In this document: one piece after another, positions 6,637 to 31,311 of the stretch | Layout of the letters: every line of letters begins with the position of its first letter | How positions within the stretch are numbered: the stretch's first letter is position 1 | Virus record (IMG/VR): IMGVR_UViG_3300029193_000102 | Span: 1 to 33,477 of that record | DNA: 33,477 nucleotides | Source of the DNA: a virus | Lineage: Duplodnaviria; Heunggongvirae; Uroviricota; Caudoviricetes | Direction: 5' to 3' (one strand) | Made by a program: the position numbers and the translations under genes | Notes under the pieces: model-generated | Seen by the model: the letters and a program-made list of their open reading frames with translations, nothing else | What the model was told of the DNA's origin: nothing | Database searches by the model: none

Positions 6637-6673
6637 TACCCATAGGTATTTAAAAAGTAAATACCTATGGGTA
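6637..6673. promoter_or_regulatory. 16-bp perfect inverted repeat TACCCATAGGTATTTA / TAAATACCTATGGGTA (5-bp spacer); candidate operator upstream of the dicB-type operon
   Basis: Arms at 6637..6652 and 6658..6673; lies in the 270-bp non-coding gap between the repressor gene stop and the first early-left ORF. Confidence 0.35.
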
Positions 6674-6715
6674 AATTTTTGCGGTGTCTTAACTGGTGAC
6701 TAGTTGTTTGGTGAG

Positions 6716-7135
6716 CTATGATGCGTTTTGTGCTTTCTTTTTACGGATTTCTTCGTAGATCATATTGTAATACTGTTTTTTCTCTTCAAGAGTTTTTAAT
6801 AATTTATCCGCTTCACTTTCTGGCAGTTCGTCTAAGAGATCTAAAAAAATACGTTGTCGTGGCGTTAGAACCCTTGTTTCATAACTGGAGGCTGTGTTCG
6901 TTGATGATGAAACGATACCATCCATCCATCCCCGGGGTAACCCAAAGGACTCTTCGATAATCTCCACCATATCATCAGCGATCCGTTTTTTTCCCTTTTT
7001 CCCCTCTGGGTACAACATTCTTGATACATAAGAAGGCTCGCGCCCGATCTTTCTGGCCACGTTAACCGCTTTACCATCGCATTTCTCATCACGAATTTTG
7101 ATGAGTTGCTGTCGTCTAAATTCATATTTGTCCAT
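6716..7135 (-). CDS. Prophage repressor, HTH (DicA/RacR-like immunity repressor), possibly translated leaderless
   Basis: 139 aa; HTH-like segment GKAVNVARKIGREPSYVSRML; C-terminal FLDLLDELPESEAD resembles recalled DicA; divergent from a Cro-like gene; no SD before the ATG but a TATTAT -10 (7142..7147) sits just upstream. Confidence 0.7.
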   Translation of the reverse strand: MDKYEFRRQQLIKIRDEKCDGKAVNVARKIGREPSYVSRMLYPEGKKGKKRIADDMVEIIEESFGLPRGWMDGIVSSSTNTASSYETRVLTPRQRIFLDLLDELPESEADKLLKTLEEKKQYYNMIYEEIRKKKAQNAS

Positions 7136-7141
7136 AGGTAA

Positions 7142-7211
7142 ATAATAGATGCGATTACCGCAAGGTAAACAACCTGTGGGTATTGACTTTTGTTTACCTG
7201 TGGGTATTCTT
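7142..7211. promoter_or_regulatory. Divergent promoter/operator region: direct repeats ACCTGTGGGTATT (7172..7184, 7196..7208) overlapping a rightward promoter (-35 TTGACT 7183..7188, -10 ~7205..7211) and a leftward promoter (-35 GTTTAC 7165..7170 rc, -10 TATTAT 7142..7147 rc)
   Basis: Repeats and hexamers read directly; spacings 16-17 bp; placement between the divergent repressor and Cro-like genes. Confidence 0.4.
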
Positions 7212-7235
7212 TGCTGTGTTTACTAAGGAGTAGCT

Positions 7236-7517
7236 ATGGAAGAATTAAGAATATTTCTCAATTCTCTTTCGTCAGATGAACAGCGTATGTTTGCATGCGA
7301 GTGTGGTACCAGCATCGGTTATCTAAGAAAGGCATTGAGTAAAGGTCAAGTGTTAGGGGCATCGTTATGTGTCCTTATTGAGCGAGCCAGTAATGGTGAA
7401 GTTACACGTCAGCAACTAAGGCCTTTTGATTGGATGAATATTTGGCCCGAGCTGGAAGATACCAAAACGTTAACACAACCACTTTCTAGGAGCTTGATTC
7501 ATGAAAATCAAGCATGA
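7236..7517 (+). CDS. Cro-like HTH regulator (YdaS/DicC-like)
   Basis: 93 aa; AAGGAG SD 7 nt upstream; HTH segment CGTSIGYLRKALS; QLRPFDWMNIW resembles recalled Rac YdaS; divergent from the repressor. Confidence 0.7.
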   Translation: MEELRIFLNSLSSDEQRMFACECGTSIGYLRKALSKGQVLGASLCVLIERASNGEVTRQQLRPFDWMNIWPELEDTKTLTQPLSRSLIHENQA

Positions 7518-7926
7518 ACACATCCGCATGGCGATGAATGCATGGGCGCGTCCTGATGGCGAAAAAGTTCCAGCAGCTGGAATAACCCAGGCTTATTTTG
7601 AGTTGGGTATGACGTTCCCAGAACTGTATGACGACAGCCATCCGGAAGCCCTGGCTCGCAATACCCAGAAAATTTTCCGCTGGGTAGAGAAAGACACCCC
7701 TGATGCTGTTGAAAAAATGCAGGCTCTGTTACCGGCGATCGAAAAGGCGATGCCGCCTTTGCTGGTGGCCCGTATGCGCAGCCACAGTTCTGAATATTAC
7801 CGTGAGATCGTCGAACGGAGGGATCGGCTGGTGAAGGATGTCGATGATTTTGTTGCGTCAGCGGTTGTTTTGTATGACCAGATGAATCGCGGCGGCCCGG
7901 CAGGGAATGCTGTGGTGATGCACTAA
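7501..7926 (+). CDS. YdaT-like regulator (CII-position protein)
   Basis: 141 aa; N-terminus MKIKHEHI matches recalled Rac YdaT; AGGAG SD; start overlaps the Cro-like gene end. Confidence 0.65.
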   Translation: MKIKHEHIRMAMNAWARPDGEKVPAAGITQAYFELGMTFPELYDDSHPEALARNTQKIFRWVEKDTPDAVEKMQALLPAIEKAMPPLLVARMRSHSSEYYREIVERRDRLVKDVDDFVASAVVLYDQMNRGGPAGNAVVMH

Positions 7927-7948
7927 AAGCACGGTGTTCGGGGGGTTT

Positions 7949-8911
7949 ATGAGCAGCAAGCTTCATGGTCTTGTCTGGGAAGGGTGCGCCTTCACCGGCA
8001 TGATCTTATCCAGGGTGGCGGTTATGGCCCGTCTTGCAGACTACAGCAATGACGAGGGCGTGTCATGGCCTGCCATTGAAACTATCCGGCGTCAGATCGG
8101 TGCAAGAAGTGAATCCACAGTGAAATCGGCTATTGCAGAACTGGCGAAAGAGGGCTGGCTGACGAAGGAAGAGCGTAAGGTCGGTGGGCGTAATGTAAGC
8201 AATATCTATCGGCTTAATGTGGAAAAACTCGAAGCAGCTGCGGCGGCGGCGCGTGAGTCATATAAACCGAAAAGAAAAATTAGCCCGGCAAAAAATGACC
8301 CGTTAACAGTTGACCCGTCAAATATTGACCCCTCAACGGTTGACCCGTCAAATTTTGATGGATCAACTGTTGATAAAAAACTGCCGATTAGGGGGGCGAT
8401 GATTGACCCCGATCCGTCAGTATTAAAACCTGATCCGTCAGATAAAAGATCTTCTTGTCCGGACGCTTCGCAACCGGACCCGCAGACGGCTGAACAGGAT
8501 TTTTTAACCCGACACCCTGACGCGGTTGTGTTCAGTGCGAAAAAACGCCAGTGGGGAAGTCAGGAAGATTTGGTGTGCGCACAGTGGATCTGGGGACGAA
8601 TCGTGAGTCTTTACGAGCAGGCGGCCAGCTATGATGGCGAGATCACTAGACCGAAAGAACCCAACTGGACAGCATGGGCCAATGACGTTCGCACAATGCG
8701 GATGCTGGATGGCAGAACTCACAGACAAATTTGTGAAATGTTTGGGCGTCTCCAGCGGGATTCGTTCTGGGTAAAAAACATCATGAGTCCGGCAAAACTC
8801 CGGGAAAAATGGGATGAACTGGTTATCCGCCTGGGGCGTTCGCCTGCGCAGCGTTGCGTGAATCACATTTCTGAACCGGACACTGAAATTCCGCCGGGCT
8901 TCAGGGGGTGA
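7949..8911 (+). CDS. Replication initiator (lambda O-like role) with N-terminal winged-helix domain and internal pentapeptide repeat
   Basis: ATG 7949 after G-rich SD (ORF track starts at GTG 7934); N-terminal HTH-type domain; immediately followed by a DnaC-like loader; contains iteron array. Confidence 0.7.
   Translation: MSSKLHGLVWEGCAFTGMILSRVAVMARLADYSNDEGVSWPAIETIRRQIGARSESTVKSAIAELAKEGWLTKEERKVGGRNVSNIYRLNVEKLEAAAAAARESYKPKRKISPAKNDPLTVDPSNIDPSTVDPSNFDGSTVDKKLPIRGAMIDPDPSVLKPDPSDKRSSCPDASQPDPQTAEQDFLTRHPDAVVFSAKKRQWGSQEDLVCAQWIWGRIVSLYEQAASYDGEITRPKEPNWTAWANDVRTMRMLDGRTHRQICEMFGRLQRDSFWVKNIMSPAKLREKWDELVIRLGRSPAQRCVNHISEPDTEIPPGFRG
8310..8441. repeat. Iteron-like direct repeats (TTGACCCGTCAAAT family) with exact 15-bp periodicity inside the initiator gene; candidate replication origin
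   Basis: Copies start at 8310, 8325, 8340, 8355, 8370, with degenerate copies at 8403 and 8431; they encode the repeated VDPSN(I/F)D peptide. Confidence 0.5.
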
Positions 8912-8917
8912 CGTGTC

Positions 8918-9664
8918 ATGAAAAACATTGCGGCAGTTGGGGTTCTTGAACGTATTCGCAGACTTGCACCACAGGGGGCGGTTCCACCGTACCGGACGGT
9001 GGAGGAGTGGCGGGAATGGCAACTTGCTGAAGGACGAAAACGCAGCGAGGAGATTAACCGCCAGAATCGCCAGTTGCGGGTGGAAAAAATCCTGAATCGT
9101 TCGGGCATTCAGCCTCTGCACAGCAAATGCTCGTTTGCAAATTATCAGGTGCAGAACGACGGGCAAAAATACGCGCTGAGCCAGGCCAAATCCATAGCTG
9201 ACGAACTGATGACCGGGTGCACGAATTTTGTGTTCAGCGGTAAAACCGGCACCGGGAAAAATCACCTTGCAGCGGCGATGGGCAACCGGCTGATGGTGAA
9301 GGGGCGCAGCGTGATTATCGTCACCGTTTCTGACGTCATGAGCGTGTTGCATGACAGCTACGACAACGGCAAATCCGGGGAAAAATTTTTACAGGAGCTT
9401 TGCGGGGTTGATTTGCTGGTCCTGGATGAAATAGGCGTTCAGCGGGAGACGAAAAACGAGCAGGTGGTATTGCACCAGATAATTGATCGCCGGACAGCAT
9501 CACTGTGCAGTGTCGGGATGTTAACAAACCTGAATCATGCCGCAATGAGTACGCTTCTTGGTGAGAGGATTATGGACCGCATGACCATGAACGGTGGTCG
9601 ATGGGTGACGTTTAACTGGGATAGCTGGCGTCCAAATGTCAGCAATATGAGGGTTGTGAAGTAA
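8918..9664 (+). CDS. DnaC-like helicase loader (IstB-type AAA+ ATPase)
   Basis: 248 aa; Walker A GKTGTGKNHLAAAMG, Walker B LLVLDEIG. Confidence 0.85.
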   Translation: MKNIAAVGVLERIRRLAPQGAVPPYRTVEEWREWQLAEGRKRSEEINRQNRQLRVEKILNRSGIQPLHSKCSFANYQVQNDGQKYALSQAKSIADELMTGCTNFVFSGKTGTGKNHLAAAMGNRLMVKGRSVIIVTVSDVMSVLHDSYDNGKSGEKFLQELCGVDLLVLDEIGVQRETKNEQVVLHQIIDRRTASLCSVGMLTNLNHAAMSTLLGERIMDRMTMNGGRWVTFNWDSWRPNVSNMRVVK

Positions 9665-13206: not shown

Positions 13207-13465
13207 ATACAGCGAACGCCATTGGTTTAGTTGGATATTTACTGTGCCGGACAAAAACGGTTTGCGGGGAAATCTTAGTTAAGTAGAATAACTGCGGGTG
13301 CTTGAGGCTATCTGTCTCAGGCATGAACACCAAAAGGCAGATAGAGAAAAGCCCCAGTTAACATTACGCGTCCGGCAAGACGCTTAACATTAATCTGAGG
13401 CTCAATCTATGAACGGCAAATCTAGGTTAGCCTCTTACGTGCCGAAAGGCAAGGAGAAGCAGGCT

Positions 13466-13621
13466 ATGAAGCAGCAAAAGGCGATGTTAGTCGCCCTGAT
13501 CGTCATCTGTATTACCGTCATTGTGACGGCACTGGTAACGAGGAAAGACCTCTGCGAGGTACGAATCCGAACCGGCCAGACGGAGGTCACTGTCTTCACA
13601 GCTTACGAACCTGAGGAGTAA
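13466..13621 (+). CDS. hok: Hok/Gef-family type I toxin (HokD/RelF-like)
   Basis: 51 aa MKQQKAMLVALIVICITVIVTALVTRKDLCEVRIRTGQTEVTVFTAYEPEE, near-identical to recalled HokD; AAGGAGAAG SD 7 nt upstream. Confidence 0.8.
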   Translation: MKQQKAMLVALIVICITVIVTALVTRKDLCEVRIRTGQTEVTVFTAYEPEE

Positions 13622-15121: not shown

Positions 15122-15487
15122 ATGACCGAACGCATAGAATTTGTTTTGCCTTACCCGCCGACGGTGAACACTTACTGGCGACGCCGTGGCAGCACATATT
15201 TTATCTCGGAGGAGGGAAAGCGTTATCGCCGGGCTGTGGCGCTTATTGTTCGCCAGCAGCGGCTGAAATTAAGCCTGTCCGGAAGGCTGGCGATAAAGGT
15301 GATTGCAGAGCCACCGGATAAGCGTCGTCGCGACCTGGACAACATTCTGAAAGCACCGCTGGATGCGCTGACGCATGCGGGAGTGCTCATTGATGACGAG
15401 CAGTTTGATGAAATCAATATTGTACGTGGTCAGCCAGTATCTGGTGGACGGCTGGGTGTGAAGATTTACAAAATTGAGAGTGAGTGA
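15122..15487 (+). CDS. rusA: Holliday junction resolvase RusA
   Basis: 121 aa; matches recalled RusA motifs LPYPPTVNTYWRRRG and DKRRRDLDNILKAPLDALTHAGVLIDD. Confidence 0.85.
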   Translation: MTERIEFVLPYPPTVNTYWRRRGSTYFISEEGKRYRRAVALIVRQQRLKLSLSGRLAIKVIAEPPDKRRRDLDNILKAPLDALTHAGVLIDDEQFDEINIVRGQPVSGGRLGVKIYKIESE

Positions 15488-16050
15488 GCGTAAATATGAT
15501 ATATCCGGAAATTACAGGCAAAAGCGGCGAGCATTTGCGTCTAAAAACGCTGGAAGCAGTCTGGATCCAGGGGAAATTACGGATGTGGGGGCGGTGGTCG
15601 TATATTGGCGGCGGTAAGACGGGAAATATGTTCAACCAATTACTGACCTCTAAAAAGCTGACAAAAACGGCAATTAACGAGGCGCTCCGGAGGATGAAAA
15701 AAGCTGGTCTGGACAAACCTGAACTTGAGGCTTTTTTGCGGGATATGATCAACGGCAATCAAAAAAGCTGGCTGGCACATTGTACCGATTCAGAGGCGTT
15801 AATAATCGACAGGGTTATTGGTGAAGTCCTGGCAGGCTATCCCGGGCTGCTCAATGTCCTGAGTCAGCGTTATGTGGGGCGGGGGATGACTAAGCGCAAA
15901 ATGGCTGAACTGCTGAATGATGCACACCCGGAATGGAGTTTAAGAACCTGTGAAAGACGCATTGAGCATTGGCTAAAGGTGGCAGAATTTATTTTGTACA
16001 AACCAATGGTTATGGCTTTTGGTATAGAGAAAAAAGTTATTGCTTTTTGA
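15484..16050 (+). CDS. Putative late-gene antiterminator (Q-like), assigned mainly by position
   Basis: 188 aa; lies between rusA and a strong terminator that precedes the late genes; alternative start ATG 15496. Confidence 0.5.
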   Translation: MSVNMIYPEITGKSGEHLRLKTLEAVWIQGKLRMWGRWSYIGGGKTGNMFNQLLTSKKLTKTAINEALRRMKKAGLDKPELEAFLRDMINGNQKSWLAHCTDSEALIIDRVIGEVLAGYPGLLNVLSQRYVGRGMTKRKMAELLNDAHPEWSLRTCERRIEHWLKVAEFILYKPMVMAFGIEKKVIAF

Positions 16051-16486: not shown

Positions 16487-16804
16487 GTGGTAAATTGGCG
16501 GCTGGTGGGTGTGGTGGTTGTTGCTTTCCCGTTGCTGAAAAAGAAAACGCCAGACTGTTAGCCGGGTATCAGTTATCTGGAGAAATTTTTAAATACCTCA
16601 CAATTCAGGCGGTTGACTGTTGTCTGGTTTGCGGGGAGTTTGTTAAAAGAAACTGGCATGGTGAATCCCCCTGTGCGGAGGGGCAATCAGCAACTGGTGT
16701 TTTGTCACCGACCCTTATCCTTTCTGTGCGGGTTCAGGTGCTGATACTGAACTCACCGGGAGGCACCCGGCATCATGTGCATGATGATACAGATACGCGG
16801 CTTT

Positions 16805-16830
16805 AGCCCCTCTCCGGAGGGGCTTTCTTG
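16805..16830 (+). terminator. Rho-independent terminator (plus strand)
   Basis: AGCCCCTC-TCCG-GAGGGGCT followed by TTCTTG. Confidence 0.45.
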
Positions 16831-16835
16831 TGGGC

Positions 16836-16861
16836 AAAAAAAAGCCCGAGTGGGTTCGGGC
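16836..16861 (-). terminator. Rho-independent terminator (minus strand), convergent with the previous one
   Basis: A8 run then GCCCGA-GTGGGT-TCGGGC on the plus strand, i.e. hairpin plus U-tract on the minus strand. Confidence 0.4.
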
Positions 16862-17043
16862 AACAGCATGAGATATACATTTTTATAATCGAATGGATTT
16901 TAACCAGAATTCATAAGGCTGCGCAACTGCGCGGTCTTTTTCGAATTGCGGGCTGTCGTCTCTCTTCTGCCATTGTCCTGTAACTTCCGGACTTCAGCCT
17001 GCTCCTTATCTGACTCACAATATTATCCCGGCCGGGAGGATTC

Positions 17044-19014
17044 ATGGCATTTAAACACTACGATGTGGTCAGGGCGGCATCGCCGTCAGACCTTGCGGAT
17101 GCGCTTGCTCAAAAAATTCGTGAAGGATGGCAACCATACGGCGGGCCGTTTTCTTCGTACACGGATGATGGCGCAGCACTTATTCAGGCGATTGTCGCAG
17201 AAGGTAATGTCACCACACCTGTGGTGGTGAAGCCGTCGGATGGAGAAGGCGCAGTTATCAGCACCACCAGCAACCCGGAGTATTACTTTGTTGTTGCCCT
17301 GGCCGGGCAGTCAAACGGTATGGCGTATGGTGAAGGGCTTCCGCTGCCGGAGACATATGACCGTCCGGACCCGCGTATTAAACAGCTGGCGCGTCGCAGC
17401 ACTGTCACGCCGGGTGGTGCGTCCTGTAACTACAATGACATTATTCCTGCGGACCACTGCCTGCATGATGTTCAGGATTTGAGTAAGTTTTCACACCCGA
17501 AAGCCAGCGCAGCTCAGTATGGATGCGTGGGGCAGGGATTACATATCGCGAAGAAATTGTTGCCGTTTATTCCGGCGAATGCCGGTATTCTTCTGGTTCC
17601 GTGCTGCCGTGGGGGTTCTGCATTTTTGGCGGGCGATGAAGGTACCTTCAGCGAATCCACCGGCGCAAGCGAGACCTCGGCACGCTGGGGTGTAGATAAG
17701 CCACTGTACAAGGACCTGCTTACCCGTACTCAGGCCGCACTGAAGGCCAACCCTAAAAATATTCTGCTTGCAGTGGTCTGGATGCAGGGCGAGTTTGATT
17801 TGAAACAGGGTGCATACGCCACTCAGCCGGGGCTGTTTGATTCCATGGTGGAAAAATATCGTTCTGACCTGTCGGAATTCGGAGGTCAGTGTCTCGGGGG
17901 CTCTCCGTCATCAGTTCCCTGGATTTGTGGCGACACGACCTACTACTGGAAGCAGACTTATTCTTCGCAATACGATGCGGTGTATGGTGCATACAAGACG
18001 AAATCCGCAAAAAAAATCTTCTTTGTGCCGTTTATGACGGATGAAAACGGGCGAAATGTGGGTACCAACGAGCCGTCAGAAGATCCGGATGTTGCGGATA
18101 TTGGGTATTACGGAGCCGGTGGTCGAACGGACGCCAAAACCTGGACGACGGCTGACCGTAAAACGCATTTTGGATCATGGGCACGTCGTGGGATTATTTC
18201 CGACCGTCTGGCAACGGCGATTCTTGTGCATGCCGGGAGAACCGCTGAATTCATTACCGGAAAACAGCCTGATACGGTGAAGCCCACCGGACCTTCCGGT
18301 GAAGGTACGGAGAGAGAGCCGGAAGGTCCGGTCAGTAACCGAACCCTGATGAGTCTGCTGGCGTCCGGCGAAGACCTGGCATCACAGGGCTGGCGCTATT
18401 ATCACAAACCGGCGAGCGGAGACAATGTTAACAAAAACATTGCTGAAGCGGTGGTCAGTGATGCGGGGGCTACGGGAGGTAAGGCCCTGCAACTGAATAA
18501 ACCGGAAAACCACATCTGGTTTCTGGAGCATGATGCAGCCGGGCAGGGGGCAGAGTTGCTGAAGAAAGGAGGACGTGTGAGCGTACGGTTTAAGTTGCCG
18601 GGTTCACTGGTGCCGAATCAGTTTGCCCTGGGCATTTACTGGCAGTTGTCGTCCCTGCCGGAGGGAGTGACGCTGGCAGAGGAAGGCAACGACATGCTGA
18701 TGTCCTTCTTCCTGCAGACGGATGCGACGAACCTGAACGCGATGCACCACAAGAAGCCGAATGCGAAGCTGGAAACGTTCGGGGTCTTTGATAACGGATG
18801 GCACACACTGGCTTTTGAGTTTGCCGGAAACAACAGCATTCAGGTGACGCCGGTACTGGATGAGAAACGGGGGACGCCGTTCACACTGGTGAAATCTCCG
18901 GCATCAGGGGCGGTGGACAAACTGCAACTGACAGGCATATCAAAGGCGGCGACATATACGCTGCTGATTGACAGTGTGAAGGTGGAAGTGAACAACGCGG
19001 ACATCGCGGCATGA
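17044..19014 (+). CDS. nanS: Prophage sialate O-acetylesterase (NanS-p type; DUF1737 N-terminus plus SGNH/SASA esterase domain)
   Basis: 656 aa; GGAGG SD; N-terminus MAFKHYDVVRAASPSDLADALAQKIREGWQPYGG; esterase motif ALAGQSNG; position between Q and lysis genes as in Stx phages. Confidence 0.8.
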   Translation: MAFKHYDVVRAASPSDLADALAQKIREGWQPYGGPFSSYTDDGAALIQAIVAEGNVTTPVVVKPSDGEGAVISTTSNPEYYFVVALAGQSNGMAYGEGLPLPETYDRPDPRIKQLARRSTVTPGGASCNYNDIIPADHCLHDVQDLSKFSHPKASAAQYGCVGQGLHIAKKLLPFIPANAGILLVPCCRGGSAFLAGDEGTFSESTGASETSARWGVDKPLYKDLLTRTQAALKANPKNILLAVVWMQGEFDLKQGAYATQPGLFDSMVEKYRSDLSEFGGQCLGGSPSSVPWICGDTTYYWKQTYSSQYDAVYGAYKTKSAKKIFFVPFMTDENGRNVGTNEPSEDPDVADIGYYGAGGRTDAKTWTTADRKTHFGSWARRGIISDRLATAILVHAGRTAEFITGKQPDTVKPTGPSGEGTEREPEGPVSNRTLMSLLASGEDLASQGWRYYHKPASGDNVNKNIAEAVVSDAGATGGKALQLNKPENHIWFLEHDAAGQGAELLKKGGRVSVRFKLPGSLVPNQFALGIYWQLSSLPEGVTLAEEGNDMLMSFFLQTDATNLNAMHHKKPNAKLETFGVFDNGWHTLAFEFAGNNSIQVTPVLDEKRGTPFTLVKSPASGAVDKLQLTGISKAATYTLLIDSVKVEVNNADIAA

Positions 19015-22365: not shown

Positions 22366-22536
22366 TTTTGTGATTTTATCGTCATCATCATAATAATGGT
22401 AACTTATTGTTTTTAATGTGTTTAGCATTAAAAAGATGATGATTGCGGTTGATTTTTGTTCGACATCTTTATATGGCGGCATTTCTTTACAAAAAAAGAG
22501 CCACTTTTGTTCAGCGGTTTATGTGGAGGGATGTAA

Positions 22537-23013
22537 ATGGACGGCGAGCTGAAAAATATGAAGTTAAATATTAATCAACTGGCAGCCCTTTCAGGTCTGC
22601 ACCGGCAGACTGTTGCCGCCAGAATGGCGGATGTTCCTCTTGCACCAGGCAGTAATGAAAAGAAAAAACTGTATCTCCTGACGGATTTGATTATTTCGTT
22701 GCTGGAAAAACCACCGACTTCCGAAGATGAAGAGATGAACCCACATGATCGGAAGGCATGGTATCAGTCCGAGCGCGAGCGTCTTAAATTTCAGCATGAA
22801 ACTGTTCAGCTTGTGCCTGTCAGTGATGTCAGGCGGTCCTTTTCTGTCGTGGTGAAAGCGATAGTTCAGGTACTGGAAACCTGGCCTGACCGGCTGGAAA
22901 GGGACAGAGGTTGGACCGCATCACAACTGAATGAAGTACAGATTGTGGTTGATGAGATCCGCGACACACTGGAAAAGGCAGTCATTGACTGTTGTGATGA
23001 GGCCGATATGTGA
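22537..23013 (+). CDS. Terminase small subunit
   Basis: 158 aa; GGAGGGA SD; N-terminal HTH NINQLAALSGLHRQTVAARM; immediately upstream of the large terminase gene. Confidence 0.7.
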   Translation: MDGELKNMKLNINQLAALSGLHRQTVAARMADVPLAPGSNEKKKLYLLTDLIISLLEKPPTSEDEEMNPHDRKAWYQSERERLKFQHETVQLVPVSDVRRSFSVVVKAIVQVLETWPDRLERDRGWTASQLNEVQIVVDEIRDTLEKAVIDCCDEADM

Positions 23014-25133
23014 ATCAGGTGAACGAGAGCCATAGCCGCGCATCCGATATCTGGCGCGAAGTGGCCTCGCTGTTTCGCCCGCCCAGCCGGTTACCAGTAG
23101 CGGAAGCCATCAGGCGTTATATGCGGGTACCACGGGGAGCCAATACTTCCGGTCCGTGGGAGTCATCGCTGACGCCCTATATGATTGACCCCATTAATAC
23201 ATTATCAGCCCGTGAATATGACGCGGTGGTGTTTGTGGGACCTGCGCGAACCGGGAAAACCGAAGGGCTGATTGACGGCTGGATTGTGTACGGCATCATC
23301 TGTGATCCGGCGGATATGCTGGTGGTGCAAATGACCGAGACGAAGGCGCGGGAACACTCCAGAACGCGTCTTTCCAGAACGTTTCGTCACAGCCCGGAGG
23401 TCAGTAAGCGTCTCAGTCCTTCCCGTAATGACAACAACGTCCACGATAAAATGTTTCTTGACGGCTCCTTCCTGAAGATTGGCTGGCCGTCGATCACTGT
23501 ATTTTCTTCTTCGGATTACCGTCGTGTGGCGCTGACGGATTATGACCGTTTCCCTGAAAACGTGGACGGGGAAGGGGATGCCTTCACCCTGGCATCAAAG
23601 CGTACCACCACCTTTATGTCCTCGGGGATGACCCTGGTCGAGAGTTCGCCGGGGCGGGATATCACTGACACCAAATGGCGCTGTGGCGGCGCACATGAGG
23701 CACCGCCAACAACGGGGATCCTGTCACTGTATAACCGGGGAGACCGCCGCCGGTGGTACTGGCCGTGTCCGCACTGCGGGGAATATTTTCAGCCGGTGAT
23801 GGATAACATGACCGGATACCGGAATAACCCGGATTTTGTGGCTGCCGGTCAGGCTGCCCGTCTGATGTGTCCGCATTGTCGCGGGCTGATTGCCCCTGAG
23901 CAGAAACGCGAACTGAATAACAAAGGGATCTGGCTTCGTGAAGGTGAACGGGCGGTGGCGGACGGCAGTATCACCGGAACACCACGAAATTCCAGGATTG
24001 CGTCATTCTGGATGGAGGGGCCGGCTGCGGCGTTTCAGACCTGGGAACAACTGATTTTTAAACTGCTGGCGGCAGAAGAAGAGTATGAGCGAACCGGCAG
24101 TGAAGAGACCCTGAAAGCGGTGGTGAACACCGATATCGGACGCCCCTATCTGCCCCGTTCAGCCACGGAACAGCGTAAAAGTGAACTGCTTGAACAGCGT
24201 GCCGAGCCGTTTCCCCGGCGATCTGTGCCGGATGGTGTGCGTTTTATTGAGGCAACGGTTGACGTACAGGGCGGTAAAAATCGCCGTTTTGTTGTGCAGA
24301 TCACCGGATACGGAGAGCAGGGGGAACGCTGGATTGTTGATCGCTATAACATCCGGCATTCACTGCGCTGCAGTCCCAACGGTGAAAGTCTGCCGGTTGA
24401 TCCGGCGGCATATCCGGAGGACTGGGATTTGTTGCTGACGGATGTGTTCCATAAAACATGGCCGCTGGCTTCTGATCCGGATGTGCGCATGCGTCTGATG
24501 GCCATGGCGGTGGATACGGGAGGGGAAGCCGGGGTGACAGATAACGCCTATCGTTTCTGGCGTCGTTGCCGGAGTGACGGACTGGGCAACAGGGTGTTTC
24601 TGTTCAAGGGGGATGGACTTCGCCGTGACAGGCTGATTAACCGTACCTTCCCGGATAATACCGGCAGAAGTGCCCGCCGTGCCAGAGCCAGTGGCGATGT
24701 CGCGCTGTGGCTGGTTCAGACGGATGCGTTTAAGGACCGTGTAAATAATGCCCTGTGGCGTGACACACCAGGGCCGAACTATATCCACTTTCCCGACTGG
24801 CTGGGGCGATGGTTTTACGATGAGCTGACCTATGAAGAGCGCGGCAGTGACGGAAAATGGCGAAAACCGGGCAGGGGAGCTAACGAGGCGTTTGACCTGC
24901 TGGTTTATGCGGATGCGCTTGCCGTTCTGCATGGTTACGAAAAGATCCGCTGGCCCTCCGCACCGGACTGGGCACAGCGGGAAACGTGGCTCGTCTTCCC
25001 GCAGGAGCGTTCTGGTGAAACGGTATCCCCGGAACTGACGGCCGGGGCAGAAAAACGCCGTCGCCGGAAGAAAAAACTACGGACGGAGCGTGCGGAAGAT
25101 AATCCATGGATAACATCAGGAGGCTGGTTGTGA
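23010..25133 (+). CDS. A: Terminase large subunit (lambda gpA family)
   Basis: 707 aa; ATPase motif VGPARTGKTE, CPHCGE zinc motif and nuclease-region DTGG as in lambda gpA; GTG start overlapping the small-subunit stop. Confidence 0.9.
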   Translation: MNQVNESHSRASDIWREVASLFRPPSRLPVAEAIRRYMRVPRGANTSGPWESSLTPYMIDPINTLSAREYDAVVFVGPARTGKTEGLIDGWIVYGIICDPADMLVVQMTETKAREHSRTRLSRTFRHSPEVSKRLSPSRNDNNVHDKMFLDGSFLKIGWPSITVFSSSDYRRVALTDYDRFPENVDGEGDAFTLASKRTTTFMSSGMTLVESSPGRDITDTKWRCGGAHEAPPTTGILSLYNRGDRRRWYWPCPHCGEYFQPVMDNMTGYRNNPDFVAAGQAARLMCPHCRGLIAPEQKRELNNKGIWLREGERAVADGSITGTPRNSRIASFWMEGPAAAFQTWEQLIFKLLAAEEEYERTGSEETLKAVVNTDIGRPYLPRSATEQRKSELLEQRAEPFPRRSVPDGVRFIEATVDVQGGKNRRFVVQITGYGEQGERWIVDRYNIRHSLRCSPNGESLPVDPAAYPEDWDLLLTDVFHKTWPLASDPDVRMRLMAMAVDTGGEAGVTDNAYRFWRRCRSDGLGNRVFLFKGDGLRRDRLINRTFPDNTGRSARRARASGDVALWLVQTDAFKDRVNNALWRDTPGPNYIHFPDWLGRWFYDELTYEERGSDGKWRKPGRGANEAFDLLVYADALAVLHGYEKIRWPSAPDWAQRETWLVFPQERSGETVSPELTAGAEKRRRRKKKLRTERAEDNPWITSGGWL

Positions 25134-25342
25134 GCACAGAAGAAGCCAGAGAAATGATACAGCGGTACCGTGAAGCGGAAATGGCCGTACTGGAGGGGAA
25201 GTCTGTCACCTTCAACGGACAGCAACTGACGCTGGAAAGCCTTTCTCAGATCCGCGCCGGACGTCAGGAGTGGGAACGCAGGCTTGCCGCGATGGTGAGC
25301 CGCAGGCGGGGAAAACCAGGATTTAAACTGGCGAGGTTTTAA
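25130..25342 (+). CDS. W: Head-tail joining protein W-like
   Basis: ~70 aa from GTG 25130 (AGGAGG 6 nt upstream; alternative ATG 25106); C-terminus RRRGKPGF resembles lambda gpW. Confidence 0.6.
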   Translation: MSTEEAREMIQRYREAEMAVLEGKSVTFNGQQLTLESLSQIRAGRQEWERRLAAMVSRRRGKPGFKLARF

Positions 25343-26844
25343 TGGCAATTATTGATGATGTGATAGGCGTGTTTTCCCCCGGCTGGAAAGCAGCCAGACT
25401 GCGTTCAAGGGCGTTAATCATGGCCTATGAGGCGGTGAAACCGACCCGGACACATAAAGCCCGGCGGGAAAATCGCTCTGCTGATCAGCTCAGTAAATAC
25501 GGTGCGGTTTCCCTGCGGGAGCAGGCCCGTTTTCTGGATATCAATCATGACCTGGTGATTGGTGTGTTTGACAAGCTGGAAGAGCGGGTGATTGGTGCCA
25601 GGGGAATTATTGTGGAGCCTCAGCCATTACGAAAAAACGGGGAAATGGCGGCAGAGCTGGCTGCGGATATCCGCCGGTTGTGGGCTGAGTGGTCCGTGAG
25701 TCCGGATGTGACAGGGCAGTATACCCGTCCCGTGCTTGAACGTTTACTGCTGCGGACCTGGCTGCGGGATGGTGAAGTGTTTGCGCAGATGGTCAGTGGT
25801 GCGGGAAACGGTCTGGAACGGACGGCGGGAGTGCCATTCTGGCTTGAGGCGATGGAGCCGGATTTTGTTCCCATGCGCACTGATGAATCCGCCGGACTGA
25901 ATCAGGGGGTTTTTCTTGATGAGTGGGGAAGACCGAAAAAATATCTGGTTTATAAAAATTATCCGGTCAGCGGCCGGCAGAGTGATACGAAAGAAATCGC
26001 TGCCGGAAAAATGATCCACCTGAAGTTCACTCGTCGTCTGCATCAGACGCGAGGCTCATCCATGTTATCGGGGGTGCTGATACGGATCAGTGCCCTTAAG
26101 GAGTATGAGGATGCGGAACTCACTGCGGCGCGTATTGCCGCGGCGCTGGGACTGTATATCCGTAAAGGTGACGGGCAGGACTATGAAGAGCCGGGGATCA
26201 AAGAAACCGACCGGGAAGTCCATATCACACCGGGTATTATTTATGACGATTTGCGCAAGGGCGAGGATATCGGCATGGTCAAATCAGACCGTCCCAATCC
26301 CAACCTTGAAACTTTCCGCAACGGCCAGTTGCGTGCAGTGGCAGCGGGCAGTCGTCTGAGTTTTTCCAGTGCGGCGCGTAACTATAACGGCACCTACAGT
26401 GCCCAGCGGCAGGAGCTGGTCGAGTCCACGGATGGTTACCTGATCCTGCAGGACTGTTTTATTGGCGCGGTAACCCGTCCGGTGTACCGGACATGGCTGA
26501 ATATGGTGGTTGCGGCAGGTCTGCTGAAAATTCCGGCGGATGTGGAGATGAAAACGCTATATAACGCGACGTATTCCGGTCCGGTGATGCCGTGGATCGA
26601 CCCGGTTAAGGAAGCTGAAGCCTGGAGAATTCAGATCCGGGGTGGTGCAGCGACAGAATCTGACTGGGTGCGTGCCGGCGGGCGCAATCCGGATGAGGTC
26701 AAACGTCGCCGCAAGGCTGAAATTGATGAAAACAGCAGACTGGGGCTGGTCTTTGATACTGACCCCGTCAACGACAAAGGAGGCAACAGTGCCGGAACTG
26801 AACAACAGCGTCAGCAGGCCACCGACAGCCAGCATGAAGAATAA
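25342..26844 (+). CDS. B: Portal protein (lambda gpB family)
   Basis: 500 aa, placed after W and before the protease as in lambda. Confidence 0.85.
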   Translation: MAIIDDVIGVFSPGWKAARLRSRALIMAYEAVKPTRTHKARRENRSADQLSKYGAVSLREQARFLDINHDLVIGVFDKLEERVIGARGIIVEPQPLRKNGEMAAELAADIRRLWAEWSVSPDVTGQYTRPVLERLLLRTWLRDGEVFAQMVSGAGNGLERTAGVPFWLEAMEPDFVPMRTDESAGLNQGVFLDEWGRPKKYLVYKNYPVSGRQSDTKEIAAGKMIHLKFTRRLHQTRGSSMLSGVLIRISALKEYEDAELTAARIAAALGLYIRKGDGQDYEEPGIKETDREVHITPGIIYDDLRKGEDIGMVKSDRPNPNLETFRNGQLRAVAAGSRLSFSSAARNYNGTYSAQRQELVESTDGYLILQDCFIGAVTRPVYRTWLNMVVAAGLLKIPADVEMKTLYNATYSGPVMPWIDPVKEAEAWRIQIRGGAATESDWVRAGGRNPDEVKRRRKAEIDENSRLGLVFDTDPVNDKGGNSAGTEQQRQQATDSQHEE

Positions 26845-28813
26845 ATCCTGGTTCAGGATGCAGGCGGGTGGTCAGGGTGAGGCGGATATTTATATTTATG
26901 ACGAGATTGGTTTCTGGGGAGTTACCGCGAAGCAGTTTGTCAGCGATATGAATGCCCTGGGTGATATCACCCACATTAATCTCCACATCAACTCACCGGG
27001 TGGCGATGTCTTTGAAGGCATCGCCATTTTTAATGCCCTGAAAAATCACGGTGCGGCCATTACCGTGTATGTGGATGGCGTTGCCGCCTCGATGGCATCC
27101 CTGATTGCGATGGCCGGTGACACGGTCATTATGCCGGAAAATGCCTTCATGATGATCCATAAACCCTGGGGGATCAGCGGTGGTGATGCGGAGAAAATGC
27201 GCACTTATGCCGAACGTCTGGACAAACTTGAGTCGGTTATGGTGCCGGTATATGCGCAGAAAACCGGAAAAACTACCGATGAAATTGCCGCCATGCTGGC
27301 GGATGAGACCTGGATGTCCGGTGCCGAGTGTCTGGCACACGGATTTGCAGACCAGGTGACGCCAGCCGTTAAGGCAATGGCATGTATTCAGTCAAAACGT
27401 ACAGAGGAATTTAAAAAGATGCCGGAATCCATCCGAAATATGATCACGCAGCCATACAACAGTGCCCCGCGTGATACCACAGTGACAATCCCTGCACCGG
27501 CGGTAACAGAACCATCACCGGTACCGGCAGTGTCTGATGAGGCGACCATTCGCGCCCGCGTTATGGCAGAACAGAAAGCCCGCATGTCAGGCATTAACGA
27601 TCTGTTTGCCATGTTCGGCGGTCGCTATCAGACGCTTCAGGCACAGTGCGTGGCTGATCCTGACTGTTCGCTGGAAATGGCCCGTGAACGTCTGCTGAAT
27701 GAAATGGGCAAGGAGTCCTCGCCGACCAACAAAAATACACCGGCTCATATTTATGCCGGAAACGGCAATTTTGTGGGGGACGGGATCCGCCAGGCGATGC
27801 TGGCCCGTGCCGGATTTGAAAATGTCGAGAAGGATAACGCCTATAACGGGATGACCCTGCGTGAATGGGCTCGCATGTCACTGACGGAGCGCGGTATTGG
27901 GGTGGCCAGTTATAACCCCATGCAGATGGTCGGGCTGGCGCTGACGCACAGCACCTCTGATTTTGGCAATATTCTGCTGGATGTGTCGAACAAGGGGCTG
28001 ATCCAGGGCTGGGAGGAATCAGAAGAAACCTTCCAGAAGTGGACCCGTAAGGGACGCCTGTCAGACTTCAAAACAGCGTATCGCGTGGGGATGGGCGGTT
28101 TTGGTTCTCTGCGCCAGGTTCGTGAGGGGGCGGAGTATAAATACATCACCACCTCAGATCGCAAGGAGACCATTGCACTGGCCACTTACGGGGAGATTTT
28201 CTCCATCACCCGCCAGGCCATTATCAATGATGATCTGAATATGCTGGTGGACGTGCCGATGAAGATGGGGCGTGCGGCGAAGGCAACGATTGGTGACCTG
28301 GTTTACAAGGTGCTGACGGATAACCCGAAACTGTCAGACGGTAAGGCGCTGTTCCATGCCGATCACAAAAATATTGCCACCGGTGGGATTTCCGTTTCCG
28401 GACTGGATGCGGCCCGTCAGATGATGCGCCTGCAGAAAGAAGGCGATCGCGCCCTGAATATCCGTCCGGCCTTTATGCTGGTACCGGTGGCACTGGAGAC
28501 GGTGGCGAACCAGACCATCAAATCGGCCAGTGTGAAAGGGGCGGATGCAAACGCCGGTGTCATTAACCCCATCCAGAACTTTGCTGAGGTGATTGCAGAA
28601 GCGCGTCTTGATGCGGCAGATCCGAAAACCTGGTATCTGGCGGCGGCACAGGGCACTGACACCATTGAAGTGGCCTGGCTGGATGGTGTGGACACTCCAT
28701 ACATTGATCAGCAGGAAGGTTTCACCACTGACGGCATTGCCACAAAAATCCGTATTGATGCCGGAGTGGCACCACTTGACTGGCGCGGGCTGGTGCGTTC
28801 GTCGGTGGCCTGA
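26834..28813 (+). CDS. Prohead protease (ClpP/S49-like) fused to a putative major capsid domain
   Basis: ~660 aa from ATG 26834 (track ORF begins 26642 inside the portal gene); protease region INSPGGDVFEGIAIFNAL...ASMASLIAMAGD; C-terminal ~330 aa of capsid-like character; no separate major capsid gene follows. Confidence 0.7.
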   Translation: MKNKSWFRMQAGGQGEADIYIYDEIGFWGVTAKQFVSDMNALGDITHINLHINSPGGDVFEGIAIFNALKNHGAAITVYVDGVAASMASLIAMAGDTVIMPENAFMMIHKPWGISGGDAEKMRTYAERLDKLESVMVPVYAQKTGKTTDEIAAMLADETWMSGAECLAHGFADQVTPAVKAMACIQSKRTEEFKKMPESIRNMITQPYNSAPRDTTVTIPAPAVTEPSPVPAVSDEATIRARVMAEQKARMSGINDLFAMFGGRYQTLQAQCVADPDCSLEMARERLLNEMGKESSPTNKNTPAHIYAGNGNFVGDGIRQAMLARAGFENVEKDNAYNGMTLREWARMSLTERGIGVASYNPMQMVGLALTHSTSDFGNILLDVSNKGLIQGWEESEETFQKWTRKGRLSDFKTAYRVGMGGFGSLRQVREGAEYKYITTSDRKETIALATYGEIFSITRQAIINDDLNMLVDVPMKMGRAAKATIGDLVYKVLTDNPKLSDGKALFHADHKNIATGGISVSGLDAARQMMRLQKEGDRALNIRPAFMLVPVALETVANQTIKSASVKGADANAGVINPIQNFAEVIAEARLDAADPKTWYLAAAQGTDTIEVAWLDGVDTPYIDQQEGFTTDGIATKIRIDAGVAPLDWRGLVRSSVA

Positions 28814-28835
28814 TAACCGAGTTATCACAATCACT

Positions 28836-28854
28836 GCCCGAAAGGGCTTTTTTT
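28836..28854 (+). terminator. Terminator-like hairpin plus T7 after the capsid gene
   Basis: GCCC-GAAA-GGGC followed by TTTTTTT; preceded by palindrome TGATAACCGAGTTATCA (28811..28827). Confidence 0.4.
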
Positions 28855-28901
28855 ATGCCTGAAAAACAGCCCCACAGGGGGCTGTCCGGAGAAACAGCAT
28901 T

Positions 28902-29228
28902 ATGGCGAAAAATTTTGTACAGGACGGTACCACCATTGAACTGGTGAATGCCGGAGATCAGACCATCCTGAGCGGTGCTGCGGTGGTGGTCGGCAGTATG
29001 GTGGCCGTGGCCATTACCGATATTCCTGCCGGTGATGCCGGTGACGGTTTTGCCGAAGGCGTGTTCCTTCTGCCCAAACAGTCTGCTGACGACATTCAGT
29101 CCGGCGCGGTGGTTTATCTGAAGGACGGGGTTGTGCAGCTGGCTGCAGAGGGTGCGGTGGCCGCGGGGGTAGCCTGGGAAAATGCTCCTGCAAACAGCGC
29201 CACTGTGGCGGTAAAAATCAATGTCTGA
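28902..29228 (+). CDS. Putative head decoration protein
   Basis: 108 aa Gly/Ala/Val-rich protein directly after the capsid gene; lambda D-equivalent position. Confidence 0.5.
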   Translation: MAKNFVQDGTTIELVNAGDQTILSGAAVVVGSMVAVAITDIPAGDAGDGFAEGVFLLPKQSADDIQSGAVVYLKDGVVQLAAEGAVAAGVAWENAPANSATVAVKINV

Positions 29229-29502
29229 TCTGTTTACGCGAATGTGTTGCCGGATGGACGGGGCGACCGTTCGGGTGATGGGCAAACAGGCGGAGATTAA
29301 CGGCGTCGTGTATGACGTGATGCCGGAGGAAGAGTCCGCGGAGATGGGGGCGCTTTCGGGCAGCCAGTTGTCACTGGTGGTGTTTTCAGCCCGGTACCGT
29401 CCGGCCCGTCATGATGTTGTTGTGTTTGATGGCCGTACACTGACGGTGACCCGTTATGACACGTACAACGGTAAACCCCGGATTTTTGTCGAACAGGAAT
29501 GA
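29221..29502 (+). CDS. Putative head-tail connector / head completion protein
   Basis: 93 aa; overlaps upstream stop; position between decoration protein and Z. Confidence 0.45.
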   Translation: MSDLFTRMCCRMDGATVRVMGKQAEINGVVYDVMPEEESAEMGALSGSQLSLVVFSARYRPARHDVVVFDGRTLTVTRYDTYNGKPRIFVEQE

Positions 29503-29504
29503 GC

Positions 29505-30128
29505 ATGGCAATAAAAGGTCTGGCGCAGGCCATGAAAAATCTGGATGCAATTGACCGCCGTGCCGTTCCCCGGGCCTCTGCCACGACACTGAACCGCGTG
29601 GCGGGGGCCATCATTGCGAAAACGGCCACTTCAGTTGCCAGGGAGCTGGCCGTTCCCCGCCGTCTTATCCGTGCCCGCATCCGGTTAAGTCCGGCACGAC
29701 CGGATAAGGTTTATGCAAAGGTTTACATCAATACCGGCAACCTGCCTGCCATCAAACTGGGGGAGGCCCGCGTTCGACTTTCCCGCAGAAAACGGAGAAA
29801 GAAAGGACAGCGTGCGGCCCTGAAAGGGGGCGGCAGTGTGCTGATTGTGGGGAAAAGACGGATCCCGGACGCCTTTATCACCCGACTGGCTAACGGACGC
29901 TGGCATGTGATGCAGCGTATGCCGTGGGCACCATCGTCCACCGGCGCTGACAGCAAAGGGAGGCCGAAACGCCACCGTCTGCCAATTGAAGTGGTGAAAA
30001 TTCCGACTGCCGGACCGCTGGCAGAAACCTTTGAACGTGAACGGGACCGGATGTACCGGGAAAAATTACCAGTGCAGATGATGAAAGCCATGACGCATCA
30101 GTTACGCCTGGTGCTGAAAAGAAAATGA
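29505..30128 (+). CDS. Z: Tail completion protein Z
   Basis: MAIKGLAQA..., RRKRRKKGQRAALKGGGSVL, NGRWHVMQR, VVKIP and HQLRLVLKR match recalled lambda gpZ. Confidence 0.8.
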   Translation: MAIKGLAQAMKNLDAIDRRAVPRASATTLNRVAGAIIAKTATSVARELAVPRRLIRARIRLSPARPDKVYAKVYINTGNLPAIKLGEARVRLSRRKRRKKGQRAALKGGGSVLIVGKRRIPDAFITRLANGRWHVMQRMPWAPSSTGADSKGRPKRHRLPIEVVKIPTAGPLAETFERERDRMYREKLPVQMMKAMTHQLRLVLKRK

Positions 30129-30140
30129 CAGGGAGGGTGT

Positions 30141-30539
30141 ATGAAACACCGTGAAATACGGGCGGCAGTTCTGTCTGCCCTGAAAGACAATATTTCTGAG
30201 CGGGTGAGCTGGTTTGACGGCCGCCCGGTTTTTATTGATGAACAGGAACTGCCTGCTGTTGCTGTTTACCTGACTGATGCGTCTGCTGCTGACGAGTTCG
30301 TTGATGAGGGGACCTGGGAGGCGACACTGCATATTGAATTTTTTCTCAGGGCAAAAGAACCGGACTCGGCACTGGATATGTGGATGGAAGAGAAAATCCT
30401 TCCTGCGCTGGAGGCGGTTCCCGGCCTCAGTGCGTTACTGCTGAAGATGAATCTTCAGGGGTATGACTACCGCCGGGATGATGAGTTTATGATGTGGGGA
30501 TCGGCAGATCTCCTGTGGAAAATTACCTACGAGATGTGA
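30141..30539 (+). CDS. U: Tail terminator protein U
   Basis: [11 protein letters not shown]...FPAVAVYLT...GYDYRRDD...ITYEM match recalled lambda gpU. Confidence 0.85.
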
Positions 30540-30546
30540 GGACGAT

Positions 30547-31293
30547 ATGGCAACACCAAATCCCCTGGAGCCGGTAAAAGGTGCCGGTACCACTCTGTGG
30601 GTTTACAACGGCAAGGCTGATGCTTATGCAAACCCGTTGTCAGACGATGACTGGCAGCGACTGGCTAAGGTGAAGGATCTGACGCCGGGCGAGATGACGG
30701 CTGAACCCTACGATGATAACTACCTGGATGATGAAGACGCGGACTGGACCGCGACCGGGCAGGGACAGAAATCTGCAGGTGATACCAGTTTTACGCTGGC
30801 CTGGAAACCGGGAGAGGAAGGTCAGAAAGGGCTTATAGGCTGGTTTGAAAGCGGCGATGTCCGGGCCTATAAAATCCGTTTTCCGAATGGCACGGTGGAT
30901 GTGTTTCGTGGCTGGGTCAGCAGTATCGGTAAGGCCGTGACGGCGAAAGAAGTGATCACCCGCACGGTGAAAGTCACTAACGTGGGTAAACCTTCTGTAG
31001 CGGAAGAACGCAGCAAAATTACGCCGGTCACTGCGATTAAGGTAACGCCGACAGGTACGGTTGAAAAAGGGAAAACAACCACCCTGACCGTTACTGTGGA
31101 ACCGGAAAATGCAACGGATAAGACATTCAGGGCGATTTCCGCCGATCCATCGAAAGCCACCATTAGCGTGAAAGATATGACGATTACTGTGACGGGGGTT
31201 AAGGATGGAAAAGTCAGCATCCCTGTGATTTCCGGTAATGGTCAGTTTGCTGCGGTGGCTGAAATTACCGTTAATAATGTGCCGGGTGGCTAA
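30547..31293 (+). CDS. V: Major tail protein V with C-terminal Ig-like domain
   Basis: Near-identical stretches to recalled lambda gpV ([52 protein letters not shown]). Confidence 0.9.
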
Positions 31294-31311
31294 AGAGCTG
31301 AGAGATAAGCG

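What the first reader, a model, noticed from the sequence alone, without database searches (positions are those of the whole stretch)
26834..28813. Single gene encoding prohead protease plus capsid-like domain
Instead of separate lambda C, Nu3 and E genes, one ~660-aa ORF carries a ClpP/S49-like protease region at the N-terminus and ~330 aa of capsid-like sequence at the C-terminus. A 108-aa decoration-like gene follows and no separate major capsid gene is present before the tail genes. The capsid assignment for the C-terminal half is inference.
Basis: partly seen in the sequence, partly recalled or inferred. Interest (0 to 1): 0.4.

Follow-up and report, generated by a model that had tools for sequence, protein, structure and literature searches.

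The report
Fused prohead protease–scaffold–capsid gene (Gifsy-2 type)
This is an ordinary, already described phage head gene: one reading frame in an E. coli lambdoid prophage encodes the maturation protease, a scaffold-like spacer and the major capsid protein, as in Salmonella phage Gifsy-2.

Summary
Window 26834-28813 (+) is one intact 659-codon ORF. It has three parts:
- A ClpP/S14-type protease domain, residues about 1-205. Ser86 and His109 are invariant in 105 homologues.
- A Pro/Thr-rich linker and a helical central region, residues about 206-368.
- An HK97-fold major capsid domain, residues 369-659 (Pfam Phage_capsid_4, Mu gpT type).

The gene follows a lambda-type portal gene. A 108-aa cement/decoration gene and then the tail genes come next. 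No other capsid gene is present.

None of this is new. NCBI has a curated model for this architecture (NF045540, 996 bits against a cut-off of 475). RefSeq already names the protein [quoted passage not shown]. It is 61% identical along its whole length to the Gifsy-2 "tripartite capsid gene" product (Effantin et al. 2010). It is 97-99.8% identical to proteins of phage CP-1639 and Stx-converting phages. The gene occurs in 2070 of 5426 complete E. coli genomes. Low interest.

The parts
25342..26844 (+). Portal protein gene (lambda gpB family). Its stop overlaps the start of the fusion gene.
   Evidence: Pfam Phage_portal_2 E 6e-80 and PHROG 21. RefSeq 'phage portal protein'.
26834..28813 (+). 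Tripartite head gene: ClpP-like prohead protease, scaffold-like region and major capsid protein (659 aa, 71.7 kDa).
   Evidence: ORF. NCBIfam NF045540, 995.8 bits against cut-off 475. PHROG 133 end-to-end. 61% identity over the full length to the Gifsy-2 protein. RefSeq WP_122986669.1.
26789..26791 (+). Alternative in-frame GTG start, with GAGG at 26780-26783 and a 5-nt spacer. It would give a 674-aa product.
   Evidence: Sequence. The 674-aa homologue P0001 (3481 member sequences) starts at the equivalent position.
26834..27448 (+). Protease domain, residues 1-205 (22.4 kDa). ClpP/S14 fold. Catalytic Ser86 (codon 27089-27091), His109 (codon 27158-27160) and Glu158 at the position of the ClpP Asp.
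27449..27538 (+). Pro/Thr/Ala/Ser-rich flexible linker, residues 206-235.
   Evidence: Model pLDDT below 50 at 206-233. Lowest conservation and many indels in alignment A1. Composition 47% P+T+S+A over residues 191-235.
27539..27937 (+). Central helical region, residues 236-368 (14.7 kDa). Inferred scaffold or delta-domain equivalent, possibly including the capsid N-arm.
   Evidence: Confidently modelled helices 236-259, 266-274, 280-293, 313-326, 342-351 and 362-371. No Pfam family. Homologous to the same region of S78-protease-fused relatives from about residue 202 or 278 onward. The scaffold role is inferred from literature on Gifsy-2 and MD8 (PMC8508860).
27938..28810 (+). Major capsid protein core, residues 369-659 (31.6 kDa). 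HK97 fold, Mu gpT type.
28902..29228 (+). Head decoration (cement) protein gene, 108 aa.
   Evidence: Pfam Phage_cement_2 at 5e-19 and PHROG 122 'head decoration' at 3e-39. 54% identity to Gifsy-2 STM1034.

Best explanation
This is the head-shell gene of a Gifsy-2-type lambdoid prophage of E. coli. One polypeptide of about 72 kDa carries three parts in order. First comes a ClpP-family serine protease. Then comes a flexible linker plus a helical scaffold-like region that plays the part of the HK97 delta domain or lambda Nu3. Last comes an HK97-fold major capsid protein. Shown here: the intact ORF, the three modules, the conserved Ser/His catalytic residues, the HK97 fold, the gene order (portal, fusion gene, decoration gene, tail genes), the absence of any other capsid gene, and full-length homology to Gifsy-2. 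Inferred from published work on Gifsy-2, HK97 and lambda: about 415 copies assemble on the portal into a T=7 procapsid, with the protease and scaffold parts pointing inward. The protease domains then cut away the N-terminal 300-370 residues, their own included. The remaining capsid protein of about 32-38 kDa expands during DNA packaging. Trimers of the 108-aa cement protein then bind the three-fold sites and stabilise the shell.
Against: No experiment on this particular protein is available. The cleavage site(s), and whether every copy keeps its protease until assembly, are not known from my data. The scaffold role of residues 236-368 rests on position, helical character and analogy, since no family model matches it. 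The prophage itself may be defective, because relatives carry a frameshifted integrase, so the gene may not be expressed in this host. I could not read the primary Gifsy-2 paper. Details of it are cited through other papers or from memory.
Confidence: 0.93

Rival explanations
1. The C-terminal half is only a scaffold or other internal head protein, and the real major capsid gene lies elsewhere.
For: Older annotations call the protein 'protease/scaffold protein' or 'Clp protease'. A pipeline quoted in PMC8814770 failed to pick up an HK97-fold capsid protein for Gifsy-2.
Confidence: 0.01
2. The long ORF is an accident of this genome: two neighbouring genes (protease and capsid) joined by a mutation or sequencing error, that is, a pseudogene-like fusion.
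For: Unfused arrangements exist in other phages. One example is Vibrio phage K233, which has a 240-aa ClpP-type protease followed by a separate 391-aa capsid gene.
Against: The same full-length architecture is seen in over 100 of the 150 best-scoring 50%-identity clusters. It is also seen in plaque-forming phages (mEp460, LLS, Gifsy-2, Pseudomonas phages) and in 1699 complete E. coli genomes at 80% cover or more. There is a curated NCBI model for it.
Confidence: 0.01
3. The gene yields several primary products, as lambda C/Nu3 does. Internal in-frame initiation, or another recoding event, would make scaffold-capsid or capsid-only chains. Only a minority of shell subunits would then carry a protease. 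This adds to the main explanation rather than replacing it.
For: There is a precedent in the lambda C/Nu3 and Mu I/Z nested genes (established knowledge; Shaw and Murialdo 1980, cited in PMC8508860). If every subunit carried its N-terminal 368 residues, 415 copies would put about 16.6 MDa, or about 20,000 nm3, inside the procapsid. This is heavy but would still fit in a cavity of 20-24 nm radius.
Against: No in-frame ATG/GTG/TTG inside the gene has more than a 4-base Shine-Dalgarno-like match. None of these lies at a domain boundary except a weak one at Met196. The promoter and terminator scans are at background level.
Confidence: 0.1

Closest known systems
Salmonella phage Gifsy-2 'tripartite capsid gene' (STM1034.3n; Effantin et al. 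2010, Virology 402:355) and NCBIfam NF045540
   Same: Same three-part order (ClpP-like protease, central region, HK97-fold capsid protein). 61% identity over the whole length. Same neighbours: lambda-type portal upstream, small cement gene (54% identical) downstream, lambda-like tail genes. Scores 996 bits on the curated family model.
   Different: Nothing of kind. The linker is shorter and different in sequence (659 aa against 696 as annotated), and the host is E. coli rather than Salmonella.
E. coli phages CP-1639, Stx2a/Stx2d-converting phages, VT1-Sakai, mEp460, cdtI, LLS, mEp043
   Same: The same gene at 97-99.8% amino-acid identity (CP-1639, Stx phages) or about 76% (mEp460 group).
   Different: Annotated under many names, such as 'protease/scaffold', 'Nu3', 'major capsid protein' and 'head maturation protease'. 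In VT1-Sakai the gene is interrupted by IS629.
Pseudomonas phage MD8 gp5 and F10-like phages (PMC8508860)
   Same: Protease, scaffold and capsid protein in one gene of about 690 aa. 57% identity for related Pseudomonas phages.
   Different: Different host clade. The domain limits in that paper come from homology modelling only.
S78-protease/capsid fusions (NCBIfam NF045541; Rhodobacter phage RcKvothe gp9, Bordetella phage PBb002)
   Same: The scaffold-like region and capsid domain are homologous: 34% identity over residues 278-657, with NF045541 matching residues 202-656. Same gene position after the portal.
   Different: The N-terminal protease is HK97-type Peptidase_S78, not ClpP. Our protein scores 417.5 bits, below that model's cut-off of 525.
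Phage HK97 gp4 protease plus gp5 (delta domain fused to capsid protein)
   Same: A protease gene lies directly before a capsid gene whose N-terminal part acts as a built-in scaffold and is cut off. Same HK97 fold. Works alike (inference).
   Different: Two genes, not one. The protease is S78-type. The HK97 shell is stabilised by covalent cross-links, not a cement protein. The capsid is Pfam family Phage_capsid rather than Phage_capsid_4.
Phage lambda C / Nu3 / E / D
   Same: Lambdoid genome with the same portal, terminase and tail families. Protease of the same clan, a scaffold, and a T=7 shell with a trimeric cement protein.
   Different: Lambda has an S49-type protease fused to a scaffold (C, with Nu3 nested inside it) and a separate capsid gene E. 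Its gpD decoration protein belongs to another family than Phage_cement_2.

Membership tests
ClpP-like prohead protease/major capsid protein fusion (NCBIfam NF045540; Gifsy-2 type) | Full-length match to the curated family model above its cut-off | tested here: met
   995.8 bits against cut-off 475, covering residues 17-657 of 659 and profile positions 2-651 of 652.
ClpP-like prohead protease/major capsid protein fusion (NCBIfam NF045540; Gifsy-2 type) | N-terminal ClpP/S14-fold domain with catalytic Ser and His | tested here: met
ClpP-like prohead protease/major capsid protein fusion (NCBIfam NF045540; Gifsy-2 type) | C-terminal HK97-fold major capsid domain (Phage_capsid_4 / Mu gpT type) in the same frame | tested here: met
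ClpP-like prohead protease/major capsid protein fusion (NCBIfam NF045540; Gifsy-2 type) | Gene sits between the portal gene and a small decoration gene, with no separate capsid or scaffold gene in the head module | tested here: met
   Same order in Gifsy-2.
ClpP-like prohead protease/major capsid protein fusion (NCBIfam NF045540; Gifsy-2 type) | Central region acts as an assembly scaffold and is removed with the protease by self-cleavage, leaving a capsid protein of about 32-38 kDa in virions | not testable with these tools
   Only indirect evidence: a helical central module flanked by low-confidence linkers. Needs virion proteomics or N-terminal sequencing.
Lambda-type head genes (C/Nu3 protease-scaffold, E capsid, D decoration) | S49 (SppA-type) protease, a separate gpE capsid gene and a gpD-family decoration protein | tested here: not met
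   Best protease family is S14 Clp. The SppA domain model scores 27.5 bits against cut-off 155. The capsid domain is fused and is Phage_capsid_4. The decoration protein is Phage_cement_2.
Lambda-type head genes (C/Nu3 protease-scaffold, E capsid, D decoration) | Nested in-frame scaffold gene with its own start (Nu3-like) | tested here: inconclusive
   Only weak 4-base SD-like matches before internal in-frame starts. No expression data.
HK97-type head genes (gp4 S78 protease, gp5 delta-capsid) | Peptidase_S78 protease encoded by a separate gene | tested here: not met
   No S78 match in this protein. S78 is found in the related fusions of RcKvothe and PBb002 instead.
S78 prohead protease/major capsid fusion (NCBIfam NF045541) | Full-length score above cut-off | tested here: not met
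   417.5 bits against cut-off 525. The match covers only residues 202-656, the scaffold-like and capsid part.

The most novel reading that the evidence does not exclude
The evidence does not exclude one unusual reading. With one ClpP-like domain tethered to every shell subunit, the protease would have to work outside the canonical ClpP heptamer-ring geometry, matched instead to capsid hexamers and pentamers. The large released protease-scaffold fragments might also have a second role, for example as a trigger or decoy for host defence systems. Scaffold domains of other prohead proteases trigger CBASS toxicity (bioRxiv 10.1101/2023.05.21.541620). Nothing in this window points specifically to either idea. 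They apply to the whole known family.
Probability: 0.05. Interest if true: 0.45.

Novelty: already known. Interest (0 to 1): 0.08.

Why it matters
It matters little as a discovery. The architecture was described for Gifsy-2 in 2010, has its own NCBI family model, and is present in over a third of complete E. coli genomes (2070 of 5426). The practical value is in annotation. Databases still label this protein variously as 'Clp protease', 'Nu3', 'scaffold', 'head maturation protease' or 'major capsid protein'. Capsid-finding pipelines can therefore miss the capsid gene of these phages, as PMC8814770 reports for Gifsy-2. The family remains a tidy natural example of how protease, scaffold and shell functions can be merged. 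The protease module has been swapped between S14 and S78 types in front of the same scaffold-capsid unit.

Tried and rejected
- Single-sequence AlphaFold of the whole protein gave an unusable model (pLDDT 37.9). It was replaced by a run with a 105-sequence alignment.
- Profile search of the PDB with the full-length alignment was likewise dominated by ClpP.
- The central region (residues 190-369) matched no Pfam family, even at E up to 10.
- The decoration protein had no meaningful sequence match in the PDB.
- The primary Gifsy-2 paper (PMID 20427067) is not held in the library. It is cited through PMC12315714, PMC8538268 and PMC8814770.
- A scan for internal in-frame starts with Shine-Dalgarno motifs found nothing convincing. 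The promoter and terminator scans were not clearly above chance.
- I first assumed the whole window was colinear with E. coli EC931 and attributed that strain's IS66 insertion to the window. The tRNA position exposed the error. Searches showed that only the head-tail part is identical to EC931 and that the window has no IS66 element.

Full report
**Observation**

The + strand frame is open from 26642 to a stop at 28811-28813. The ATG at 26834 gives a 659-aa product of 71.7 kDa. RefSeq annotates the same coordinates (WP_122986669.1) in E. coli EC931, whose DNA is 100% identical to window 22500-31300. The start overlaps the stop of the portal gene (25342-26844) by 11 nt.

An in-frame GTG at 26789 is preceded by GAGG with a 5-nt spacer. 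This start would give a 674-aa form, which is the form used for a 3481-member cluster of near-identical database proteins. The exact start is therefore uncertain by 15 codons. This does not affect anything else.

**Anatomy**

Family models:
- Pfam places CLP_protease at residues 30-176 (E 1.5e-36) and Phage_capsid_4 at 369-656 (E 7e-56). There is a secondary match to Mu-like_gpT.
- PHROG 133 matches end to end.
- NCBIfam NF045540, [quoted passage not shown], scores 995.8 bits against a cut-off of 475. NF045542, "head maturation protease, ClpP-related", covers residues 17-175.

Catalytic residues come from an alignment of 105 homologues at 34-97% identity:
- Ser86 (motif GVAASM) and His109 (motif MIHKP) are invariant.
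- Glu158 occupies the position of the ClpP catalytic Asp in 84% of sequences.

Conservation and alignment occupancy collapse at about residues 205-240. This is a Pro/Thr/Ala/Ser-rich stretch with many indels.

Structure:
- A single-sequence AlphaFold run failed (pLDDT 37.9).
- With the alignment, the model reached pLDDT 87.4. It shows three folded modules separated by low-confidence segments at 206-233 and 302-310.
- By sequence alone, residues 331-659 also hit the solved Mu-type capsid proteins 9jod (1.4e-5) and 8rkx.

The central helical region (236-368) has no Pfam family. It is nevertheless conserved together with the capsid domain. The sister model NF045541 matches residues 202-656. The S78-protease fusion of Rhodobacter phage RcKvothe aligns over residues 278-657 at 34% identity.

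**Context**

The gene order is:
- small terminase-like DUF1441 gene
- gpA-type large terminase
- a 78-aa ORF
- lambda-type portal
- the fusion gene
- a 108-aa Phage_cement_2 / PHROG 122 decoration gene (28902-29228)
- a head-tail joining gene
- gpZ, gpU, gpV, G/T and tape-measure homologues

No other capsid-family gene was found among the larger ORFs of the rest of the window. None appears in the annotation of the complete related prophages.

**Comparison with known systems**

The protein is 61% identical along its whole length to the Gifsy-2 gene product, and the decoration protein is 54% identical.

What the literature says about Gifsy-2:
- Its prohead protease and coat genes are fused (PMC12315714, citing Effantin et al. 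[quoted passage not shown]
- Its capsid is T=7 (PMC8814770).
- It carries a trimeric cement protein at the three-fold axes (PMC8538268).

I could not read the primary paper. From my own memory, not checked here, it describes a ClpP-like N-terminus, a central domain of about 200 residues with a presumed scaffolding role, and a C-terminal capsid protein. I also recall that the cryo-EM maps were fitted with the HK97 capsid protein and lambda gpD.

The same one-gene arrangement is described for Pseudomonas phage MD8 (PMC8508860).

In the phage collection the protein shows these identities:
- 99.8% to CP-1639
- 97-99.7% to Stx2-converting phages and VT1-Sakai
- about 76% to mEp460, cdtI, LLS and mEp043
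- 57% to Pseudomonas phages
- 27% to a Vibrio phage, still over the full length

The gene is found in 2070 of 5426 complete E. coli genomes. In a search of 1.84 billion cluster representatives, 7966 proteins matched at E of 1e-30 or better. Over 100 of the best 150 were full-length fusions at 36-55% identity.

Unfused relatives also exist. Vibrio phage K233 has a 240-aa ClpP-type protease followed by a separate capsid gene of a different family.

**Mechanism**

Shown here:
- one intact frame with three modules
- a conserved catalytic dyad
- an HK97-fold C-terminus
- the head-module gene order
- no other capsid gene

Inferred from Gifsy-2, HK97 and lambda: copies co-assemble on the portal with their N-terminal parts inside the procapsid. 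The protease domains remove everything N-terminal of the capsid core. The shell then expands on DNA packaging, and the 108-aa cement protein locks it.

A rough calculation shows that 415 N-terminal parts of 40 kDa each (16.6 MDa, about 20,000 nm3) fit within a cavity of 20-24 nm radius. I looked for internal starts that could give protease-free chains, as with lambda Nu3, and found nothing convincing. This remains a minor open possibility.

**Verdict**

The feature is a textbook-level, curated and very common phage gene architecture. Novelty is "already known" and interest is low.

Noticed in passing
window 26780-26791: An in-frame GTG at 26789, with GAGG 5 nt upstream, is a better-looking ribosome site than the annotated ATG at 26834, which has no SD. 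Databases hold 659-, 674- and 648-aa versions of the same protein, so the start is inconsistently annotated.
   Followed up: partly
window 1-22500: The window starts in the chromosomal gene mtfA (about 1-800, minus strand), followed by tRNA-Ser(CGA) at 892-981 (the attachment site), then the prophage. Only the head-tail part (22500-31300) is 100% identical to E. coli EC931. No complete E. coli genome covers 80% or more of 1-22500 (best 75-76% cover at about 97.5%). The immunity/replication segment at about 6488-9664 differs from the closest relative, which is typical lambdoid mosaicism.
   Followed up: partly
window 1034-2059 (-): The integrase ORF is 341 aa. The corresponding gene is flagged 'frameshifted' by RefSeq in both close relatives examined (EC931, AVS0196), so the prophage may be unable to excise. 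I did not check whether the window copy is intact.
   Followed up: no
window 5407-5458 (-), 13296-13471 (+), 16627-16835 (+), 16839-16891 (-): Rfam matches at gathering score: DicF antisense RNA, sok antitoxin RNA (next to hokD), sRNA STnc100, and an AsxR-like ('anti-stx2') sRNA scoring exactly at threshold (63 bits). The last two lie downstream of the Q antiterminator gene (15484-16050), just upstream of the 656-aa ORF at 17044-19014.
   Followed up: no
window 17044-19014 (+): A 656-aa ORF between the Q antiterminator gene and the holin gene has DUF1737, SASA (sialate O-acetylesterase-like) and DUF6645 domains. It is a moron-position gene resembling the prophage esterases of EHEC Stx phages (resemblance from memory, not tested).
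   Followed up: no
window 29221-29502 (+): This 93-aa gene is named 'DNA breaking-rejoining protein' in RefSeq, and its Pfam family (PF13856 'Gifsy-2') is described as an 'ATP-binding sugar transporter'. By position, by PHROG 153, and by a weak Phage_attach (lambda FII-like) match, it is most likely a head-tail joining protein. Both database names look misleading.
   Followed up: partly
L004:2658-4700 (Rhodobacter phage RcKvothe) and L005:2921-5011 (Bordetella phage PBb002): The same scaffold-like plus capsid unit (34% identity over residues 278-657 to RcKvothe, 36% over 337-654 to PBb002) is fused there to an HK97-type S78 protease instead of a ClpP-type one. One of these phages is a myovirus. 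The protease module has therefore been exchanged in front of a conserved scaffold-capsid unit.
   Followed up: partly
phage record AP000400.1 (VT1-Sakai), hit H11: The 97%-identical copy of this gene in the Stx1 prophage VT1-Sakai is interrupted by IS629, which would inactivate head assembly in that prophage.
   Followed up: no
L001:10009-12425 (E. coli EC931): In EC931 an IS66-family element (ISEc23) sits in the lysis region and splits a YdfR-family gene. The window lacks this insertion, even though the head genes are identical.
   Followed up: yes
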